Shown: positions 125 to 60,714 of the stretch, piece by piece
Layout of the letters: each line of letters opens with the position of its first letter
Position numbering within the stretch: the stretch's first letter is position 1
Virus record (IMG/VR): IMGVR_UViG_3300008108_000202
Length of the DNA: 64,000 nucleotides
DNA from: an uncultured virus (IMG/VR IMGVR_UViG_3300008108_000202)
Taxonomy: Duplodnaviria > Heunggongvirae > Uroviricota > Caudoviricetes
Reading direction: 5' to 3' (one strand)
Translations under genes and position numbers: made by a program
Notes under the pieces: generated by a model
The model's input: only the letters and a program-made list of their open reading frames with translations
Told to the model about the DNA's origin: nothing
The model's database searches: none

Positions 125-198
125 TGTGTATGATGGGTTACGATCCCATTACCTTTGGTTCCACAAACCAACGCTCTACCGATTGAGCTACATACACC
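125..198 (-). tRNA. tRNA-His(GTG), G-1 present, atypical T-loop GATCGTAAC
   Basis: Cloverleaf; anticodon arm TTGGT-TTGTGGA-ACCAA; acceptor GTGTATG/CATACAC. Confidence 0.9.
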
Positions 199-206
199 AT
201 GTATTG

Positions 207-276
207 TACCGATAAAGGGTAACGATCCCAATGACAACCAGGATATGAGCCCGGCTCGGACACCTGTCCTATCGGT
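207..276 (-). tRNA. Degenerate tRNA with CAT anticodon (Met or Ile2)
   Basis: Anticodon arm CCGGG-CTCATAT-CCTGG, acceptor ACCGATA/TATCGGT; very short D-arm and weak T-stem. Confidence 0.55.
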
Positions 277-282
277 ATGTTG

Positions 283-452: not shown

Positions 453-986
453 TTATAATAGTTTTTCGTGTATCTCAGCATGACAATTTGAGCACACTAA
501 TAAACATTTATCCACTTCTTCTTTTAATCTGTCAAATGACAAACTCTTTCCTGAAATTGTGAAGTCTTTTTCATTTGGATTTTTATGGTGGAATTGTAGT
601 GCGGTCAGACATTTATTATAACCACATATTTCACACTTCCCTCCCTTGTATTCAATCAATTTCTTTTTAGTTCTCTTTCTCCATGATATAACAGATTGAG
701 ACCCACTAATCTTTTTAACCCTAACAACACTTTTAACGTGTTTTTTAACAGTTTCAAAAGACCTACCCGTAATCCTTACAACTTTTTTTAAGGAACCCAC
801 TTCATCGTATAATTTTTGAAGTTGTTCTTTTTCTTCTTCTGTTACTTTTTGATTGTTGTTGCCTAATTTATGTATCTGACAATGATACGACACTGTTGAC
901 ATTGCGCAACCTAAAATTTTTGTAATTTCTTTGTAGGTTTTTCCTTCTTTCCTCAAAGATATAATTTTTTCCGAATACCTTTCCAT
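453..986 (-). CDS. HNH endonuclease with N-terminal HTH (putative homing endonuclease)
   Basis: CEICG...LQFHH...CLLVCSNCHAEIH; N-terminal HTH (KTYKEITKILGCAMSTVSYH). Confidence 0.85.
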   Translation of the reverse strand: MERYSEKIISLRKEGKTYKEITKILGCAMSTVSYHCQIHKLGNNNQKVTEEEKEQLQKLYDEVGSLKKVVRITGRSFETVKKHVKSVVRVKKISGSQSVISWRKRTKKKLIEYKGGKCEICGYNKCLTALQFHHKNPNEKDFTISGKSLSFDRLKEEVDKCLLVCSNCHAEIHEKLL

Positions 987-1036
987 AACATTAACATTTT
1001 ATATTAATAAATATCTGATAGTTCGGAAAAAATAAG

Positions 1037-1124
1037 CTGATGGGGTGGGATTCGAACCCACGGTGGAGAAAATTCTCGTCGGATTAACAGTCCGATGCGT
1101 TCGGCCAACTACGCGAACCCATCA
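1037..1124 (-). tRNA. tRNA-Asn(GTT) with long variable arm
   Basis: TCGGA-CTGTTAA-TCCGA; GGTTCGAATCC T-arm; extra arm GAGAATTTTCTC. Confidence 0.85.
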
Positions 1125-1133
1125 ATTTTTTTG

Positions 1134-1216
1134 TGGGAGAGGAGGGACTTGAACCCCCACGTCCTCACGGAAACGGTTTTACAGACCGCCGAGCCAACCA
1201 ATTGCTCAACACTCCC
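1134..1216 (-). tRNA. tRNA-Tyr(GTA)
   Basis: GCGGT-CTGTAAA-ACCGT; long variable arm; GGTTCAAGTCC. Confidence 0.92.
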
Positions 1217-1222
1217 AAATTT

Positions 1223-1355
1223 AGGAAATCAGAAGATGGTTGCGTGGACATCTGATTTTACGATTGGCGTTACTTTGGTGTATATCTCCCAACTCCGATG
1301 ATACTGACCGATATACACTCTCGTGTCATTAGTATCACCCTTCCCCAATCAACCT
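1223..1355 (-). ncRNA. Candidate structured ncRNA with pseudoknot
   Basis: Several perfect helices (see findings) between tRNA-Val and tRNA-Tyr. Confidence 0.55.
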
Positions 1356-1359
1356 ATAG

Positions 1360-1430
1360 TACCCCAAGATGGATTTGAACCACCACCGATAGTATGTAAC
1401 ACTATCACGCTCCCATTACGCCATTGAGGT
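1360..1430 (-). tRNA. tRNA-Val(TAC)
   Basis: ATAGT-GTTACAT-ACTAT; GGTTCAAATCC; acceptor ACCTCAA/TTGGGGT. Confidence 0.88.
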
Positions 1431-1869: not shown

Positions 1870-1875
1870 ATGTTG

Positions 1876-1959
1876 AGGAAGCCTGAGGTGTCGATCCCCA
1901 TACCTTTCAGTACCGCCCGTTTTCAAGACGGGGTTGCAAGCCGTTGCAATTAGACTTCC
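1876..1959 (-). tRNA. tRNA-Ser(TGA)
   Basis: CCCGT-CTTGAAA-ACGGG; long variable arm; T-loop GATCGACAC. Confidence 0.88.
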
Positions 1960-1968
1960 TTTTTGTTG

Positions 1969-2151: not shown

Positions 2152-2160
2152 AATGTAAAA

Positions 2161-2189
2161 CAAAAAACCCGAGATTTTGTGTCTCGGGT
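2161..2189 (-). terminator. Intrinsic terminator directly upstream of tRNA cluster (attenuator terminator)
   Basis: ACCCGAGA-CACAAAA-TCTCGGGT followed by T-run on minus strand. Confidence 0.8.
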
Positions 2190-2220
2190 CTTTCATTTTT
2201 ATTTTATATTTGATGATACG

Positions 2221-2331
2221 TTATACCATACTATTAAATGAAAGACACCGAAGACGCTGAAGCGTAATATACGACTTGACCCAATTCTGACACGGGTTAC
2301 TAAAGTTCATATGTTTCATTGTTGTTTTCAT
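2221..2331 (-). CDS. Putative attenuator leader peptide, 36 aa (MKTTMKHMNFSNPCQNWVKSYITLQRLRCLSFNSMV)
   Basis: Short ORF whose 3' part is complementary to the terminator 5' arm; TATTTAT motif 7 nt upstream. Confidence 0.65.
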   Translation of the reverse strand: MKTTMKHMNFSNPCQNWVKSYITLQRLRCLSFNSMV

Positions 2332-2413
2332 CTTGGTTATAAATATATGTATTTTACAAAAAGTTTTAAATTCTTTTACAAATTTAGTAATATTTTTTTA
2401 TTTGACAAGCATT

Positions 2414-2527
2414 TTATTGATTTTTTTCATAAAATTCTTCTTGATCCTCTTTTAATTTATGTAAATAAACATAAAATTCTTCAGAGTTTATAAATTCATT
2501 ATGAATTATTTCTAAAATTTCGTCCAT
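2414..2527 (-). CDS. Small acidic hypothetical protein (37 aa)
   Basis: MDEILEIIHNEF...; TAACTTTG promoter-like element immediately upstream. Confidence 0.45.
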   Translation of the reverse strand: MDEILEIIHNEFINSEEFYVYLHKLKEDQEEFYEKNQ

Positions 2528-2608
2528 GTAACAAAGTTAAATATTTTTTTAATAAAAGACAACTTTTGTAGTTTAATTGGATATTTATATAATATAATCC
2601 ATTAGACT

Positions 2609-3130
2609 ATGAAAAAAGAAGAATTAGAAAACTTGATAAATGATGGTAAGTCATTGAACCAAATTAGTAAGGAAATAGGTAAGTCTTTAACATCTGTTAG
2701 GTATTGGGCAAAAAAACACAAAATACCTTTTGAAACTAAAAATTTCTCAAATCAAGGGATAAAGGATTATGGGGAATCAAGATTATGCCCAAGATGTAAA
2801 AAATCATGTTCTATTGATCAATTTTATGATAGGAGAGGTAAAAAAAATAGTTCAGTATATTGTAAAAAATGTACCACTGAACAGGTTGTGGAACGAACTC
2901 AGAAATTGAAACAAGAAATGGTAAACTATAAAGGGGGTTGTTGTGAATTATGTGGGTATGACAAATATATAGGTGCGTTAGATTTTCATCATATAAACCC
3001 AAATGAAAAAGATTTTACAATTGCAAAAGTTAGACAATATAAATTTGATGAAGTAATAAAGGAAGAATTGGATAAATGTATGTTAGTATGTTCTAATTGT
3101 CACCGTGAGATACACGGTGGATTAAAGTAG
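2609..3130 (+). CDS. HNH endonuclease with HTH and Zn-finger (putative homing endonuclease)
   Basis: CPRC..CKKC; CELCG...LDFHH...CSNCHREIH; paralog of 453..986. Confidence 0.85.
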   Translation: MKKEELENLINDGKSLNQISKEIGKSLTSVRYWAKKHKIPFETKNFSNQGIKDYGESRLCPRCKKSCSIDQFYDRRGKKNSSVYCKKCTTEQVVERTQKLKQEMVNYKGGCCELCGYDKYIGALDFHHINPNEKDFTIAKVRQYKFDEVIKEELDKCMLVCSNCHREIHGGLK

Positions 3131-3204: not shown

Positions 3205-3210
3205 GTTTTA

Positions 3211-3396
3211 TCAGATCTTCTTTACCTCATAAGTATGACCTGAATCTGAATTAGTTTGAAAGATGTCTTTCATTTTTTCAGCATCTTCTTCTGTTTCAAA
3301 TTCCCAAACTTCATTATCACTATTTAGAAGGATAACAGGTAGTCTTTTTGTGGGGATTGAACTTGATACTTTTACGTGTTTAACTATTACATACAT
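3211..3396 (-). CDS. Hypothetical protein
   Basis: 61-aa ORF. Confidence 0.65.
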   Translation of the reverse strand: MYVIVKHVKVSSSIPTKRLPVILLNSDNEVWEFETEEDAEKMKDIFQTNSDSGHTYEVKKI

Positions 3397-3443
3397 ATGA
3401 CAATTATAATAACTTATTTTTGATCTGTCAATAGGTATAAAAC

Positions 3444-3467
3444 AAAATGGGGATTACTCCCCACTTT
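3444..3467 (-). terminator. Intrinsic terminator
   Basis: AAAGTGGGGA-GTAA-TCCCCATTTT. Confidence 0.7.
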
Positions 3468-3543
3468 GCTAGATAATAAACACCTCCCTTTCTTTTGATG
3501 GTTTATCCTCACCCAACAACTACGTCAGATAAGTTTCATCGGG

Positions 3544-19856: not shown

Positions 19857-20135
19857 ATGTGTTCAAAAGAGGAAAAATTGAAGTCTTTGTCTGTTAGTGT
19901 TGAGAAATTTAAATCTAAATTGAGATTCTCAATCAATAGTTTTGTGTTTTTTCTGTCTATGATGTTTATTCATATGATGAATCCTGTATTTGGGTCATTT
20001 GTAACAATTGGGTTTGGGATCGCCTCTCTTGTTTTTATTCAACAAATAATCCGATCTTACAATTATCTAAAGTTTTACAAGATGTCATATAATGCATATG
20101 TTATTATGCATGAAGTTATTGAGGACATGAAATAA
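19857..20135 (+). CDS. Two-TM membrane protein
   Basis: Two hydrophobic helices; TATATTTG upstream. Confidence 0.65.
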   Translation: MCSKEEKLKSLSVSVEKFKSKLRFSINSFVFFLSMMFIHMMNPVFGSFVTIGFGIASLVFIQQIIRSYNYLKFYKMSYNAYVIMHEVIEDMK

Positions 20136-20160
20136 AAAAAGGGACTCAAGTCCCTTTTTA

Positions 20161-20592
20161 TTATTTTTTGTATCCACCTCCGAAACTATGACCACTTTTC
20201 ATACCTCCGACCATTGGTTCCATAATGTTTTTATAGAATTTAGATTTGTGAAATCTACTTGGTTCTGCCTCAAATTTAAACATTGGCATTCCTTTTGAAG
20301 TTGTTGTGATTCTAACATCACCTCTATAATTAGAGTCTTTAGCCTTCTCTAAAACTGACTCAATTGAGTTAATAAGATCTTCTTCCTCAAGACCGTTTTC
20401 TTCCAAAAGGTCTTCCATTCTTCTAATTAGATCTGTTTTAAGTTCCTCAAGTTCTTCTTTTCCAGGACCAAACATACCTTCTTCCATTTCACCATGCATA
20501 CCTTCTTCCATATCCATATGCTGAGTTTCAGTAATAATTCTTTCTATTAGGTCTGTTAATTCACTTTCCGTTAATCTTATAACTTTTTTCAT
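20161..20592 (-). CDS. Hypothetical protein with RLTE..IITE leader
   Basis: 143-aa ORF. Confidence 0.75.
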   Translation of the reverse strand: MKKVIRLTESELTDLIERIITETQHMDMEEGMHGEMEEGMFGPGKEELEELKTDLIRRMEDLLEENGLEEEDLINSIESVLEKAKDSNYRGDVRITTTSKGMPMFKFEAEPSRFHKSKFYKNIMEPMVGGMKSGHSFGGGYKK

Positions 20593-58866: not shown

Positions 58867-59553
58867 TTAATTTGATAAAGGTGCTTTAATTGTTGGGTGT
58901 GATTGGTAATCTATTAGTTTTATTAAACTATGGTCTAATTCATCAAATGGAACAGTAAACCCATCTGTTCTTCTCATATCACCACATATCATTAGTTTTG
59001 GTAAGGGATATGGTTCTCTTGTTCTTCCAACCACTATTTGTTTTTTAATACCTTCATTCATAGGACCATTTGGGTACAGTGTTGGGGATTCTTCAAATAT
59101 AGGTTGTCCAATCTGTTCCTTGGCTTGTTCAATGTGATTCAAGTATAAATGCGTATCACCTAAATTACCAATCAATTCATCAGGAACCATATTAACTTGT
59201 TTTGCAATGATTTCAAGTAGTAAACCATAAGATGCTATATTGAATGGTAAACCTAAGAATGTATCTACTGAACGTTGATTCCACATTAAAGAGATTGCTC
59301 TTTTTGGGATGTTATACCAACTAAAATTATCTTTTGGCAATTCATATTCATCCCATTCACCAGGATACGTTTTCTTAAAGTATTCAACTCTTTCATCAAA
59401 ACTCAACTCTCTTGTATAAACTTGAAATCCATAGTGACAAGGTGGAAGAACCATTTTTCCTTCTGTGATATGTTTTCTTCCGTATCTATTATTAAAATCT
59501 TTATCTGTTTTTAGTTTTTCTAAAAACTCTTCTTTTGTTAATTTTTTATCCAT
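58867..59553 (-). CDS. thyA: Thymidylate synthase, C-terminal half
   Basis: LPPCH catalytic motif, QRSVD, LGLPFNIASY, GDTHLY.NH. Confidence 0.9.
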   Translation of the reverse strand: MDKKLTKEEFLEKLKTDKDFNNRYGRKHITEGKMVLPPCHYGFQVYTRELSFDERVEYFKKTYPGEWDEYELPKDNFSWYNIPKRAISLMWNQRSVDTFLGLPFNIASYGLLLEIIAKQVNMVPDELIGNLGDTHLYLNHIEQAKEQIGQPIFEESPTLYPNGPMNEGIKKQIVVGRTREPYPLPKLMICGDMRRTDGFTVPFDELDHSLIKLIDYQSHPTIKAPLSN

Positions 59554-60009: not shown

Positions 60010-60714
60010 CTACTTAAAATTCTTTAAATAATCTTGATAAAGTTCATCATCAGTTCTATAATCAGTAACAGGTAAATCTGCTACATTCCACGCATTAACC
60101 ATCAAACGTCTTGAGTCTGGGTTTGTTTTAAGGTCGTGGATTAGGTTTGATATTTGGTCTATTGATTCAATATTCCATTTTAGCATCGGTCTTTCTGGGT
60201 GAGATGGGTCTACTATATCGCTGGTCTCCCATTTAATATTTAACCAATCTCGCCATTGCTTACCATATATTCTACCTAACTCACCCCACTTGTTAGCAAA
60301 CTCATTATCTGTTTTTATTTTGTTGATGAATTCTTCTTGTGTGTAAAGAGAATATTCTTCGTTAGTAAAAAACCCATCAAAAGATTCTTCTAATTTTAAC
60401 CATTTTCTACTAAAAGTACCTTCATCAGCATTTTTACAATAGTTCTTATAAGCATCACCATCCCAGATATGACAATTGTTATCAACTAAGTATTTGATAT
60501 TTGTATCACCACGTAAGAACCATAACAATTCTGTTACAATTCCTTTCCAATACATTTTCTTTGTTGTGAGTAAAGGAAATCCTTCTGACATCTTATGACG
60601 GATCTGCTTTCCGAATATGGATAGGGTTCCTGTACCAGTGCGATCATCCTTACGAACACCATTGTCTAGGATGTCTTGTAGGAGTGCTTGGTATTTTTTA
60701 TCTAGTGTGTTCAT
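60010..60714 (-). CDS. thyA: Thymidylate synthase, N-terminal half
   Basis: DRTGTGT, FPLLTTKK, ELLWFLRG, YGKQWR, NPDSRR..NAWN. Confidence 0.9.
   Translation of the reverse strand: MNTLDKKYQALLQDILDNGVRKDDRTGTGTLSIFGKQIRHKMSEGFPLLTTKKMYWKGIVTELLWFLRGDTNIKYLVDNNCHIWDGDAYKNYCKNADEGTFSRKWLKLEESFDGFFTNEEYSLYTQEEFINKIKTDNEFANKWGELGRIYGKQWRDWLNIKWETSDIVDPSHPERPMLKWNIESIDQISNLIHDLKTNPDSRRLMVNAWNVADLPVTDYRTDDELYQDYLKNFK

What the first reader, a model, noticed from the sequence alone, without database searches (positions are those of the whole stretch)
1223..1355. Pseudoknotted ncRNA candidate embedded in the tRNA transcript
Seen (minus strand): GATTGG(1350..1345)/CCAATC(1267..1262) encloses a hairpin GTGATAC..TGAC/GTCA-GTATCAT whose loop GTGTATATC (1318..1310) pairs perfectly over 9 bp with downstream GATATACAC (1286..1278), an H-type pseudoknot; then hairpin AAATCAGA/TCTGATTT, whose loop CAACC could pair with the 5' GGTTG. 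It starts about 5 nt after tRNA-Val and ends just before tRNA-Tyr, so tRNA processing would release it. I cannot assign it to a known family.
Basis: seen in the sequence. Interest (0 to 1): 0.7.

Follow-up and report, generated by a model that had tools for sequence, protein, structure and literature searches.

The report
Conserved knotted RNA between phage tRNAs
The 142-base gap between two phage tRNA genes encodes one member of a large, uncatalogued family of intricately folded RNAs found almost only in uncultured phages; its fold is well supported but its job is still unknown.

Summary
The pseudoknot is supported by covariation: 5 of its 9 pairs change on both sides across 32 distinct relatives, with 98.6% of cells paired.

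The element (window 1217-1358, minus strand) belongs to a family of at least 107 distinct sequences. The family is absent from Rfam 15 and from 50,697 GenBank phage records. In 185,579 prokaryote genomes, only 1 of 50 pattern hits was real.

The core is a three-way junction: P1, helix A with a loop-E-like internal loop, and hairpin D with an invariant 17-nt loop. The pseudoknot lies in a swappable central domain.

One claim falls. The D-loop CAAC pairs with an internal GUUG (55 of 58 sequences), not with the 5' GGUUG.

The element is 96-97% identical between phages whose neighbouring tRNAs are only 55-82% identical.

My reading is a stable trans-acting RNA cut out by tRNA processing, with an unknown partner. 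The scan met this family before on other DNA (e1-5812681).

The parts
1217..1358 (-). Whole RNA gene: the spacer between tRNA-Val and tRNA-Tyr, 142 nt
   Evidence: Covariance model R1 scores 150.9 bits, E 9e-36, at 1218-1358. High conservation starts and stops at the tRNA borders.
1353..1356 (-). P1 5' strand (UAGG)
   Evidence: Pairs with 1222-1225. Variants UAGG/CCUA, AAGG/CCUU and AGAGG/CCUCU occur, and AAG/CUU in L232/L235.
1345..1350 (-). Helix A 5' strand (GAUUGG)
   Evidence: 99.7% of cells pair over 63 sequences and 3 of 6 pairs change on both sides.
1340..1344 (-). Internal loop 5' side (GGAAG); the GAA half of a loop-E-like motif
   Evidence: G15, G16, A17 and A18 are at least 90% conserved in 63 sequences. 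Position 19 covaries with position 83 as G/A versus U/U. The GAA/AGUA consensus itself is recalled, not from a call.
1297..1339 (-). Pseudoknot stem 1. Outer helix B is 1339-1332 with 1304-1297; a 3-nt bulge follows; inner helix Bi is 1328-1325 with 1308-1305. The loop carries pseudoknot strand C.
   Evidence: B: 6 of 8 pairs change on both sides. Bi: 3 of 4.
1310..1318 (-). Pseudoknot helix C 5' strand (GUGUAUAUC)
   Evidence: Pairs with 1278-1286. 5 of 9 pairs change on both sides and 98.6% of cells pair.
1278..1286 (-). Pseudoknot helix C 3' strand (GAUAUACAC)
   Evidence: The equivalent helix in type-2 relatives has 4 of 6 pairs changing on both sides.
1290..1293 (-). GUUG in the third pseudoknot loop (CGGAGUUGGGA): 5' strand of tertiary helix T1
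   Evidence: Pairs with D-loop CAAC at 1239-1242. All four pairs are standard in 55 of 58 sequences; shuffles average 30.9 and peak at 42 in 10,000.
1268..1275 (-). Internal loop 3' side (AAGUAACG); the AGUA half of the loop-E-like motif
   Evidence: A85, G86 and U87 are nearly invariant, and A88, A89 and G91 are invariant in 63 sequences. Position 90 is free, with C, U and A all seen.
1262..1267 (-). Helix A 3' strand (CCAAUC)
1259..1261 (-). Junction strand J2/3 (GUA of CGUAAAA)
   Evidence: UAAAA is invariant in 63 of 63 sequences. The preceding base is G in 46 and A in 17.
1226..1258 (-). Hairpin D: stem 1258-1251 with 1233-1226, and a 17-nt loop at 1250-1234 with invariant GUCCAC and CCAUCUUC
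   Evidence: Three stem pairs change on both sides; one of them shows four pair types (GC 36, AU 9, CG 9, UA 9).
1239..1242 (-). CAAC in the D loop: 3' strand of tertiary helix T1
1222..1225 (-). P1 3' strand (CCUA). It follows the 3' strand of stem D directly, so P1 and D can stack.
   Evidence: No gap between the two strands in 58 of 63 contexts.
1359..1430 (-). tRNA-Val (UAC) directly upstream; its 3' processing would make the RNA's 5' end
1133..1216 (-). tRNA-Tyr (GUA) directly downstream; RNase P cleavage at its 5' end would make the RNA's 3' end
   Evidence: tRNA-Tyr is the flush downstream neighbour in 25 of 63 contexts.

Best explanation
Window 1217-1358 (minus strand) is the gene for a stable non-coding RNA of about 142 nt. 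It belongs to a large family confined to phages.

SHOWN: the fold.
- A three-way junction in which a short closing helix P1 runs straight into hairpin D.
- A second arm made of helix A, a loop-E-like internal loop and an H-type pseudoknot.
- A 4-bp tertiary helix T1 that ties the pseudoknot's third loop (GUUG) to the 17-nt loop of hairpin D (CAAC).
- An invariant core (GGUUGA, GGGAA/AGUAA, UAAAA, GUCCAC...CCAUCUUC, UUUCCU) that is kept while the central domain is swapped among at least six architectures.

INFERRED: how it is made. It is transcribed with the tRNA genes. Only 1-8 nt separate it from them, so the tRNA-trimming enzymes cut it out. RNase P, cutting at the 5' end of tRNA-Tyr, makes its 3' end. 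3'-end processing of tRNA-Val makes its 5' end. That RNase P separates polycistronic tRNA precursors comes from the abstract of PMC7049720 as shown in a search listing.

INFERRED, least certain: what it does. The invariant junction and D loop are the working surface and the variable domain is a clamp that holds that loop in shape. The RNA acts in trans by binding a conserved partner. That partner would be a protein or RNA of the host's translation or RNA-processing machinery, or a defence protein. The RNA would then be a decoy or cofactor during infection.
For: Fold:
- Covariation on 32 type-1 sequences, 18 type-2 sequences and 63 sequences of all types. All beat 500 shuffles on percentage of cells paired and on covariation score. 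Cells pair at 90.8-97.8%, against 33.9-55.5% in slid controls.
- T1 is fully paired in 55 of 58 sequences, against a shuffle maximum of 42. Matched sets are GUUG/CAAC 26, GUUG/CGAC 13, GUUU/GAAC 11, GGUG/CACC 3 and GGUG/CGCC 2. In the larger set, D-loop CCCC goes with GGGG in the central domain.

RNA on the tRNA strand:
- 65 of 1248 cells are G-U pairs, which would be mismatches on the other strand.

Selection:
- The element is 96-97% identical between three phage groups whose shared tRNAs are 55-82% identical. Free positions show three different bases.

Not coding:
- The 19-codon frame has an ATG in 17 of 32 sequences and is intact in 11 of 32.

A product rather than a mere spacer:
- The family keeps a fixed slot (upstream tRNA-Trp in 14 and downstream tRNA-Tyr in 25 of 63 contexts). 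It also occurs with no flush tRNA in 17 of 63 contexts.
- In five such contigs it lies between same-strand ORFs with unrelated neighbours.
- Two different paralogs sit in tandem in L210 and L257.

Phage-only:
-.

Expression hint:
- Contigs from RNA libraries of three studies cover the element at depth 2-16.
Against: - No RNA ends, abundance or strand were measured. The RNA-library evidence is assembled contigs, and DNA carry-over is not excluded.
- No partner is known.
- No antisense target stood out in the window. GAAGATGG occurs 5 times on the coding strand against 1.1 expected, and none of the five I checked against the ORF list is at an ORF start.
- The promoter is not identified. A perfect TTGACA-17-TATAAT lies at 3431-3403. 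But an intrinsic-terminator-like hairpin at 2191-2157 stands 5 nt before tRNA-Thr, between that promoter and the element.
- In five contigs the element is intercistronic, 4-6 nt after a stop codon in three of them. That fits a cis-acting processing or stabilising role as well.
- About 50 invariant nucleotides is more than most protein-binding small RNAs keep. That level is typical of ribozymes and riboswitches.
Confidence: 0.55

Rival explanations
1. It is a cis-acting punctuation module. The folded block is recognised by an endonuclease, possibly as a tRNA look-alike by RNase P or RNase Z, or it blocks exonucleases. Long phage transcripts would then be cut and their pieces stabilised at that point. 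The excised RNA itself would have no further role.
For: - In five contigs without flanking tRNAs the element sits between same-strand ORFs, with neighbours of unrelated function. It begins 4-6 nt after the upstream stop in three of them.
- P1 and stem D share a continuous 3' strand in 58 of 63 contexts. Their summed length peaks at 12 bp (26 of 63), the length of a tRNA acceptor plus T arm (that length is recalled). T1 could stand in for the tRNA elbow.
- Spacing to neighbouring tRNAs is 3-7 and 5-8 nt. Neighbouring tRNAs in L003 lie 5-6 nt apart.
Against: - In 46 of 63 contexts a tRNA already provides the processing signal, so a second signal would be redundant.
- The P1+D sum ranges from 10 to 15 bp and is not tightly held.
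- The D loop is 17 nt, not a 7-nt T loop. Neither ARAGORN nor Rfam tRNA or tRNA-like models match the element.
- A fixed slot in the array and tandem unlike paralogs look like genes for products.
Confidence: 0.2
2. It is a new catalytic or ligand-binding RNA. The invariant junction and D loop form an active site or binding pocket, and the swappable pseudoknot domain is a peripheral clamp, as in ribozymes and riboswitch aptamers. It could self-cleave to help tRNA maturation, or soak up a small molecule.
For: - About 50 invariant nucleotides lie in loops and junctions, around a three-way junction with a covarying tertiary helix, while the peripheral domain is exchangeable.
- Ribozymes beside phage tRNAs have a precedent in the theta ribozymes (PMC10879173, passages read).
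Against: - No known ribozyme or riboswitch family matches, even at E up to 10 or up to 1 on 15 relatives.
- The gap to the upstream tRNA is 3-7 nt, and an upstream tRNA is flush in only 27 of 63 contexts. Theta ribozymes abut the tRNA 3' end within 1 nt in 77% of cases.
- No expression platform follows the element; a tRNA starts 5-8 nt after P1.
- The helix order (A B C B' C' A') differs from the HDV-type nested double pseudoknot (by inspection; the HDV order is recalled).
Confidence: 0.12
3. It is a short protein gene: the 19-codon frame ATG(1329)...TAA, with a purine-rich stretch upstream.
For: The frame is open in the window. Three of four substitutions among the closest relatives fall on third codon positions.
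Against: - The ATG is present in only 17 of 32 type-1 sequences.
- In 5 of those 17 a stop follows after two codons, and one more is cut at 11 codons. The frame is intact in 11 of 32.
- Other subtypes have unrelated sequence at that place.
- Substitutions follow base pairing, not codons.
Confidence: 0.01
4. It is a DNA-level feature, either a small mobile element or a protein-binding site that spread recently between phages. That would explain near-identity inside diverged flanks.
For: The element is 96-97% identical between phages whose flanks no longer align.
Against: - Substitutions are compensatory in helices and include G-U pairs that are valid only on one strand.
- Free positions carry three different bases, so the copies are not recent.
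- The family spans many diverged forms (107 unique sequences).
- The element always has the orientation of the neighbouring tRNAs.
Confidence: 0.02

Closest known systems
Phage T4 small stable RNAs, species 1 (rnaC, 139 nt) and species 2 (rnaD, 119 nt)
   Same: They are small stable RNAs encoded flush inside a phage tRNA cluster, on the tRNA strand and next to a homing endonuclease gene (annotation of NC_000866). Their function is listed there as unknown.
   Different: No sequence or structure likeness: model R1 finds nothing in the T4 tRNA region at E up to 0.1. By inspection, rnaC ends in a tRNA-like T arm and acceptor, which this RNA lacks.
Phage T5 stable RNAs (RNAI, RNAIII, RNAIV, RNA1, RNA2, RNA2H, RNA3, RNAX)
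   Same: They are several stable RNAs 'with unknown functions' interleaved with tRNA genes and HNH endonuclease genes (annotation of NC_005859). The window has the same layout, with an HNH ORF at 453-986.
   Different: R1 finds no match in the 14-kb T5 tRNA region. The best hit has E 0.18 and does not lie on an annotated RNA.
Theta ribozymes (minimal HDV-like ribozymes beside phage tRNAs; PMC10879173)
   Same: A pseudoknotted RNA placed directly beside phage tRNA genes.
   Different: Theta ribozymes abut the tRNA 3' end within 1 nt in 77% of cases and are gut-phage elements (passages read). Here the gap is 3-7 nt and a flush upstream tRNA is present in 27 of 63 contexts. The helix order differs, no HDV-type Rfam model matches, and cleavage is untested.
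tRNA (as an architecture, not as a family)
   Same: There are two helical stacks, P1 on D and A on the pseudoknot arm. A loop-loop tertiary helix joins them, and a short 3' single strand follows the closing helix. It is probably processed by the same enzymes.
   Different: It has no cloverleaf, no T loop and no anticodon arm. Neither ARAGORN nor the Rfam tRNA model calls it.
GOLLD, ROOL and manA RNAs (ornate RNAs of phages and prophages, often near tRNA genes)
   Same: They share the genomic niche: structured RNAs of unknown function in phage DNA near tRNAs. This is recalled, apart from the abstract of 10.1101/2024.12.08.627333 seen in the listing.
   Different: Those RNAs are several times larger, apart from manA, and have Rfam models. 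None of those models matches here.

Membership tests
Any Rfam 15 family | Covariance-model score at or above the family's gathering score | tested here: not met
   No match in 1217-1358 at gathering threshold over the whole window. With E up to 10, the only overlaps are sX4 (15.4 bits against 70 needed) and, on the other strand, sR35 (13.7 against 60). There is no match inside the element in 15 diverse relatives at E up to 1.
tRNA | Cloverleaf recognised by ARAGORN or Rfam RF00005 | tested here: not met
   call the two neighbours but nothing in 1217-1358.
H-type pseudoknot | Loop of one hairpin pairs with sequence 3' of that hairpin, and both helices are supported | tested here: met
   Helices B/Bi and C cross. 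C has 5 of 9 pairs and B 6 of 8 pairs changing on both sides. The same topology with other sequences is seen in 18 type-2 members (C 4 of 6, B 8 of 8).
T4 species 1 / species 2 RNAs | Homology in sequence or structure to rnaC or rnaD | tested here: not met
   R1 finds no hit in L135 at E up to 0.1. No similarity is seen by eye.
T4 species 1 / species 2 RNAs | Encoded flush within a phage tRNA cluster on the tRNA strand | tested here: met
T5 stable RNAs | Homology to an annotated T5 stable RNA | tested here: not met
   The best R1 hit in L189 has E 0.18 and lies off the annotated RNAs.
Theta / HDV-like ribozymes | Cleavage site within about 1 nt of the tRNA 3' end, and a nested double pseudoknot | tested here: not met
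   The gap from tRNA end to GGUUGA is 3-7 nt and a flush upstream tRNA occurs in 27 of 63 contexts. The helix order is A B C B' C' A'. No HDV-type Rfam hit was found.
Theta / HDV-like ribozymes | Self-cleavage | not testable with these tools
   This needs an in vitro transcript and a cleavage assay.
Loop E / bulged-G (S-turn) motif | GAA on one strand opposite AGUA on the other, next to a helix (consensus recalled) | tested here: met
   GGGGAA and AGUAA flank helix A and are at least 90% conserved in 63 sequences. One subfamily has AGAAA instead. The three-dimensional form is not testable here.
Riboswitch | Conserved aptamer followed by an expression platform upstream of a regulated gene | tested here: not met
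   A tRNA starts 5-8 nt after P1 in 38 of 63 contexts. No terminator or sequestering helix follows in the window.

The most novel reading that the evidence does not exclude
The RNA is a new class of catalytic or small-molecule-binding RNA. Its roughly 50 invariant nucleotides at the three-way junction and in the D loop would form a pocket, and the exchangeable pseudoknot domain would clamp that pocket shut through tertiary helix T1. Made in bulk from the tRNA operon early in infection, it could act on tRNA precursors. Alternatively it could soak up a signalling nucleotide of a host defence system, as phage protein sponges do. A variant of the same idea is that T1 forms between molecules and builds an RNA-only assembly, as reported for larger phage-associated RNAs.
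Probability: 0.12. Interest if true: 0.85.

Novelty: new member of a known kind. Interest (0 to 1): 0.6.

Why it matters
Small stable RNAs in phage tRNA clusters have been known since T4 and T5, and their annotations still list the function as unknown. This one is a separate family in which both the sequence and the fold are conserved.

- It is more conserved than the tRNAs beside it.
- It is spread over at least 119 uncultured-phage contigs of 5 to 321 kb.
- It is almost absent from cellular genomes.
- It is missing from Rfam.
- It has a fully specified, testable structure: a three-way junction, a loop-E-like module, a pseudoknot and a covarying tertiary helix.

That makes it a concrete target for finding what phage tRNA-operon RNAs do. 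Together with earlier findings of this scan, it shows that phage tRNA operons are a rich source of unknown structured RNAs.

Tried and rejected
1. Seed CGCCAATCGTAAAATCAGA gave L014-L016. Only a 22-mer is shared, the flanks are unrelated, and there is no R1 hit. This is chance.
2. Relatives of the neighbouring 588-aa protein in viral contigs: none found. Synteny could not be used.
3. GenBank phages: blastn with three members at E up to 1 found no match.
4. The nearest cultured relative by thymidylate synthase is Flavobacterium phage immuto, at 64% identity. R1 on its whole genome gives only a 17.5-bit hit, antisense inside a CDS and with no tRNAs nearby. Not a member.
5. Prokaryote genomes: 50 pattern hits, against about 34 expected by my estimate. 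By motif check and R1, 49 are chance. L144 (27.2 bits) and L169 (17 bits) owe their scores to the pre-selected loop pattern and lack stem D. Only L163 is real; it is a 2.7-kb contig binned with a Sphingobacteriaceae MAG.
6. A second R1 hit in the window, at 20129-20235 (20.4 bits), is a terminator-like hairpin with a 6-nt loop and is not a member.
7. Pairing of 5' GGUUG with loop CAACC: rejected.
8. The 19-codon ORF: rejected.
9. Antisense targets of the D loop in the window: none convincing.
10. A 12-bp rule for P1+D, as in tRNA: the mode is 12 but the range is 10-15. Not compelling.
11. A mutual-information search for further tertiary pairs gave only the G/A versus U/U pair at positions 19/83 and a weak link between D-stem top position 108 and T1.
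12. RNA libraries: contigs from X15, X17 and X19 cover the element and X16 only its first bases. Contigs cannot show ends, strand or level, and the contig borders are explained by graph branching at the conserved block.
13. In the five non-tRNA contigs examined, the flanking proteins share no family.
14. Papers: five searches found no description of this family. The IMG/VR catalogue of candidate RNAs (PMC10690425; passages and one supplement table read) may contain it. Its sequence files (supplements 1 and 2) could not be read and file 4 was not searched. DNAVirus_1423, which overlaps tRNA-Tyr calls there, is a 66-nt soil motif and not this one.

Full report
**The observation.** Read on the minus strand, window 1358-1217 is the spacer between tRNA-Val (1430-1359) and tRNA-Tyr (1216-1133). 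It lies in an array of eleven same-strand tRNA genes in the first 8 kb. This includes the perfect 9-bp complement GUGUAUAUC (1318-1310) / GAUAUACAC (1286-1278), which crosses the hairpin 1339-1297. On this single sequence the case is weak. The nested fold has z = -1.17, and a perfect stem of 9 bp or more turns up in 29 of 1000 dinucleotide shuffles. Rfam 15 has nothing for it, at E up to 10 on the first 5 kb or at gathering scores on the whole window.

**Finding relatives.**
- The window's own assembly is not held, and the nearest record (G001) is identical here.
- Exact seeds from the middle of the element found six IMG/VR contigs and nine metagenome contigs. In these the element is 96-97% identical, while the shared tRNAs are only 55-82% identical and the flanks do not align.
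- One diverged copy (L023) changes three consecutive pairs of the last hairpin on both sides. It also puts three different bases at several unpaired positions. So the likeness reflects selection and not recent transfer.
- Seeds from the 5' end and from the last hairpin's loop then opened up the family, with 44 and 65 loci (one of them chance). By my count of the two lists these lie on 95 contigs of 4 to 321 kb.
- In hand are 107 distinct sequences.

**The fold.**
- The invariant core is a three-way junction. P1 is (U/A)AGG with CCU(A/U). J1/2 is UU. Helix A is GAUUGG/CCAAUC, capped by an internal loop GGAA / AGUAANG with the sequence signature of a loop-E (bulged-G) motif. J2/3 is RUA. Hairpin D has a variable stem and a 17-nt loop holding invariant GUCCAC and CCAUCUUC.
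- Over 63 sequences of all types, the 22 core and T1 pairs are 95.7% paired and 9 of them change on both sides. Slid controls pair at 35.2-55.5%.
- With the 3'-only seed, the rare changes in GGUUGA are compensated. AAG/CUU replaces AGG/CCU in P1, and A-U replaces G-C at the first pair of helix A.
In 32 type-1 sequences, outer stem B has 6 of 8 pairs changing on both sides, inner stem Bi 3 of 4, and pseudoknot helix C 5 of 9. Overall 97.8% of cells pair and none of 500 shuffles reaches this.
- In 18 type-2 sequences the same topology is built from unrelated sequence (B 8 of 8, C 4 of 6).
- Other members carry a plain hairpin, other folds, or in one contig (L031) no central domain at all.

**A corrected tertiary contact.** The 5' side never varies (63 of 63), while the loop becomes GAACC, CACCC or CGCCC in 20 of 63 without compensation. 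Instead, the four loop bases covary with G(U/G)U(G/U) in the conserved GGAGUUG of the third pseudoknot loop. The matched sets are GUUG/CAAC 26, GUUG/CGAC 13, GUUU/GAAC 11, GGUG/CACC 3 and GGUG/CGCC 2, with three exceptions. That is 55 of 58 fully paired, against a shuffle mean of 30.9 and a maximum of 42 in 10,000. In the enlarged set an automatic rule gives 70 of 81. By eye, six of the eleven misses are the rule picking the wrong motif, which leaves five true exceptions. Loops reading CCCC go with GGGG in the central domain. Covariation cannot tell whether this helix forms within one molecule or between two.

**RNA, not protein or DNA.**
- The 19-codon frame starting at 1329 keeps its ATG in 17 of 32 type-1 sequences and is intact in 11.
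- 65 of 1248 paired cells are G-U, which would be mismatches on the other strand.
- The element always has the orientation of its tRNA neighbours.

**Context.**
- Of 63 distinct contexts, 19 have a flush tRNA on both sides, 27 on one side and 17 on neither.
- tRNA-Tyr follows in 25 contexts and tRNA-Trp precedes in 14.
- The gaps are 3-7 nt (tRNA end to GGUUGA) and 5-8 nt (CC of P1 to the next tRNA).
- In five contigs without flanking tRNAs, the element lies between same-strand ORFs whose products share no family: thymidylate synthase, primase then head closure, exonuclease and others. In three of them it begins 4-6 nt after a stop codon.
- Two contigs carry two unlike members 8 nt apart.
- Three contigs (L037, L053, and G003 = L191) have a phage tmRNA gene nearby.

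**Distribution.**
- There is no match in 50,697 GenBank phage records with three members as queries.
- In one genome for each of 185,579 prokaryote species, 1 of 50 pattern hits is real. It lies on a 2.7-kb contig of a Sphingobacteriaceae MAG.
- The runs that hold the stretch are labelled lake or freshwater metagenomes, plus five labelled fungus metagenome.
- The best cultured relative by thymidylate synthase is Flavobacterium phage immuto (64%), which lacks the RNA.

**Expression.** Contigs from RNA libraries of three studies cover the element at depth 2-16. These are assemblies, so they show neither ends nor strand, and DNA carry-over is possible. A perfect TTGACA-17-TATAAT stands at 3431-3403 on the tRNA strand. 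However, an intrinsic-terminator-like hairpin with a U run at 2191-2157 lies 5 nt before tRNA-Thr. The promoter that drives the Thr-to-His part of the array, and so this RNA, is therefore not identified.

**How it most likely works.**
- Shown: the fold, the selection, and the placement.
- Inferred: it is made as part of the tRNA precursor and freed by RNase P at the 5' end of tRNA-Tyr and by 3' processing of tRNA-Val. That RNase P separates polycistronic tRNA precursors is from the abstract of PMC7049720, seen in the listing.
- P1 pairs the two ends, and its 3' strand continues directly from stem D in 58 of 63 contexts. This would protect the ends.
- The pattern of an invariant junction and D loop plus a swappable domain that grips that loop through T1 suggests that the loop and junction are the working surface.
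- I favour a trans-acting decoy or cofactor that binds a conserved protein or RNA (confidence 0.55 for the whole chain; the first two steps are much firmer than the last).
- The rivals are a cis-acting punctuation or stabilising module, perhaps read as a tRNA look-alike (0.2); a new ribozyme or aptamer (0.12); a small protein (0.01); and a DNA-level or mobile element (0.02).

**Comparison with what is known.**
- The kind is known. T4 encodes species 1 and 2 RNAs, and T5 encodes eight 'stable RNAs with unknown functions', in their tRNA clusters and beside homing endonuclease genes. The window has the same layout (HNH ORF 453-986).
- The family is not known. Model R1, built from 63 members, finds nothing in the T4 or T5 tRNA regions.
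- Theta ribozymes also sit beside phage tRNAs, but they abut the 3' end within 1 nt and have another topology.
- Five paper searches found no description.
- A catalogue of 8,495 IMG/VR candidate RNAs (PMC10690425) may include it, but its sequence files could not be read.
- This scan met the family before on other DNA: e1-5812681 shares 27 of 35 words. It has also reported several other uncatalogued RNAs in phage tRNA arrays.

**Verdict.** The structure is real and statistically solid. It is a new family within a known kind of phage RNA, and its function is still open.

Noticed in passing
window 453-986 (-): A 177-aa ORF inside the tRNA array. It has an N-terminal helix-turn-helix and a C-terminal HNH endonuclease match (phrog_2255, E 1e-26). 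It looks like a free-standing homing endonuclease, as in the T4 and T5 tRNA regions.
   Followed up: partly
window 2157-2191 (-): A strong intrinsic-terminator-like hairpin followed by a U run, only 5 nt upstream of tRNA-Thr. The 139 nt at 2152-2290 fold with z = -3.4. Weak Rfam likeness to amino-acid operon leaders there probably reflects the terminator. It may be an attenuator-like leader in front of the tRNA array.
   Followed up: partly
window 3403-3431 (-): A perfect sigma-70 consensus promoter, TTGACA-17-TATAAT, upstream of tRNA-Arg. This is odd if the host is a Bacteroidota member, whose promoters differ (recalled). The host remains uncertain.
   Followed up: no
window 1870-1967 (-): The 98-nt spacer between tRNA-Gln and tRNA-Pro folds into a closed four-way, cloverleaf-like shape (z = -2.56; 3 of 200 shuffles fold as well). 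Neither ARAGORN nor Rfam calls it. It may be another tRNA-array RNA.
   Followed up: partly
window 198-281 (-): The 84-nt spacer between tRNA-Ser and tRNA-His folds as a cloverleaf with a 7-bp closing stem and a CAU in the middle loop. It may be an uncalled, unusual tRNA(CAU).
   Followed up: no
window 1036-1124 (-): tRNA-Asn (GUU) is 89 nt long with a long extra arm, which is unusual for this isotype. In relatives it is 73-75 nt.
   Followed up: no
window 58867-59553 and 60010-60714 (-): Thymidylate synthase is split into two ORFs that match the N- and C-terminal parts of phrog_160, with a 456-nt gap. No Rfam intron is found at gathering score, and relatives have one ORF (382 aa in L190). It may be an uncatalogued intron or an insertion.
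   Followed up: no
window 2152-3129 and 3205-3543: Long stretches in and beside the tRNA array with no convincing same-strand ORF. The only ORF there, of 173 aa, is on the opposite strand and has no Pfam match. They could hold further RNAs.
   Followed up: no
L210 170-425 and L257 (same layout): Two unlike members of the family in tandem, 8 nt apart, between a tRNA and tRNA-Tyr. The first has a CACC-type D loop and an AGAAA loop-E variant. The second has a GAAC-type D loop with AGUAA.
   Followed up: partly
L037 26-409, L053 26-409, L191 3460-3855: Phage-encoded tmRNA genes lie one tRNA away from, or about 700 nt from, the element.
   Followed up: no
window, whole: G+C is 29.6% with strong strand asymmetry (plus strand T 38.6%, A 31.8%, C 17.5%, G 12.1%). 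The element itself is 41% G+C.
   Followed up: no
run X17, contig record 10, on window 1133-1217 joined to 1527-1570: A relative's contig joins tRNA-Tyr to tRNA-Lys with 31 other letters between. That array lacks both the element and tRNA-Val.
   Followed up: no
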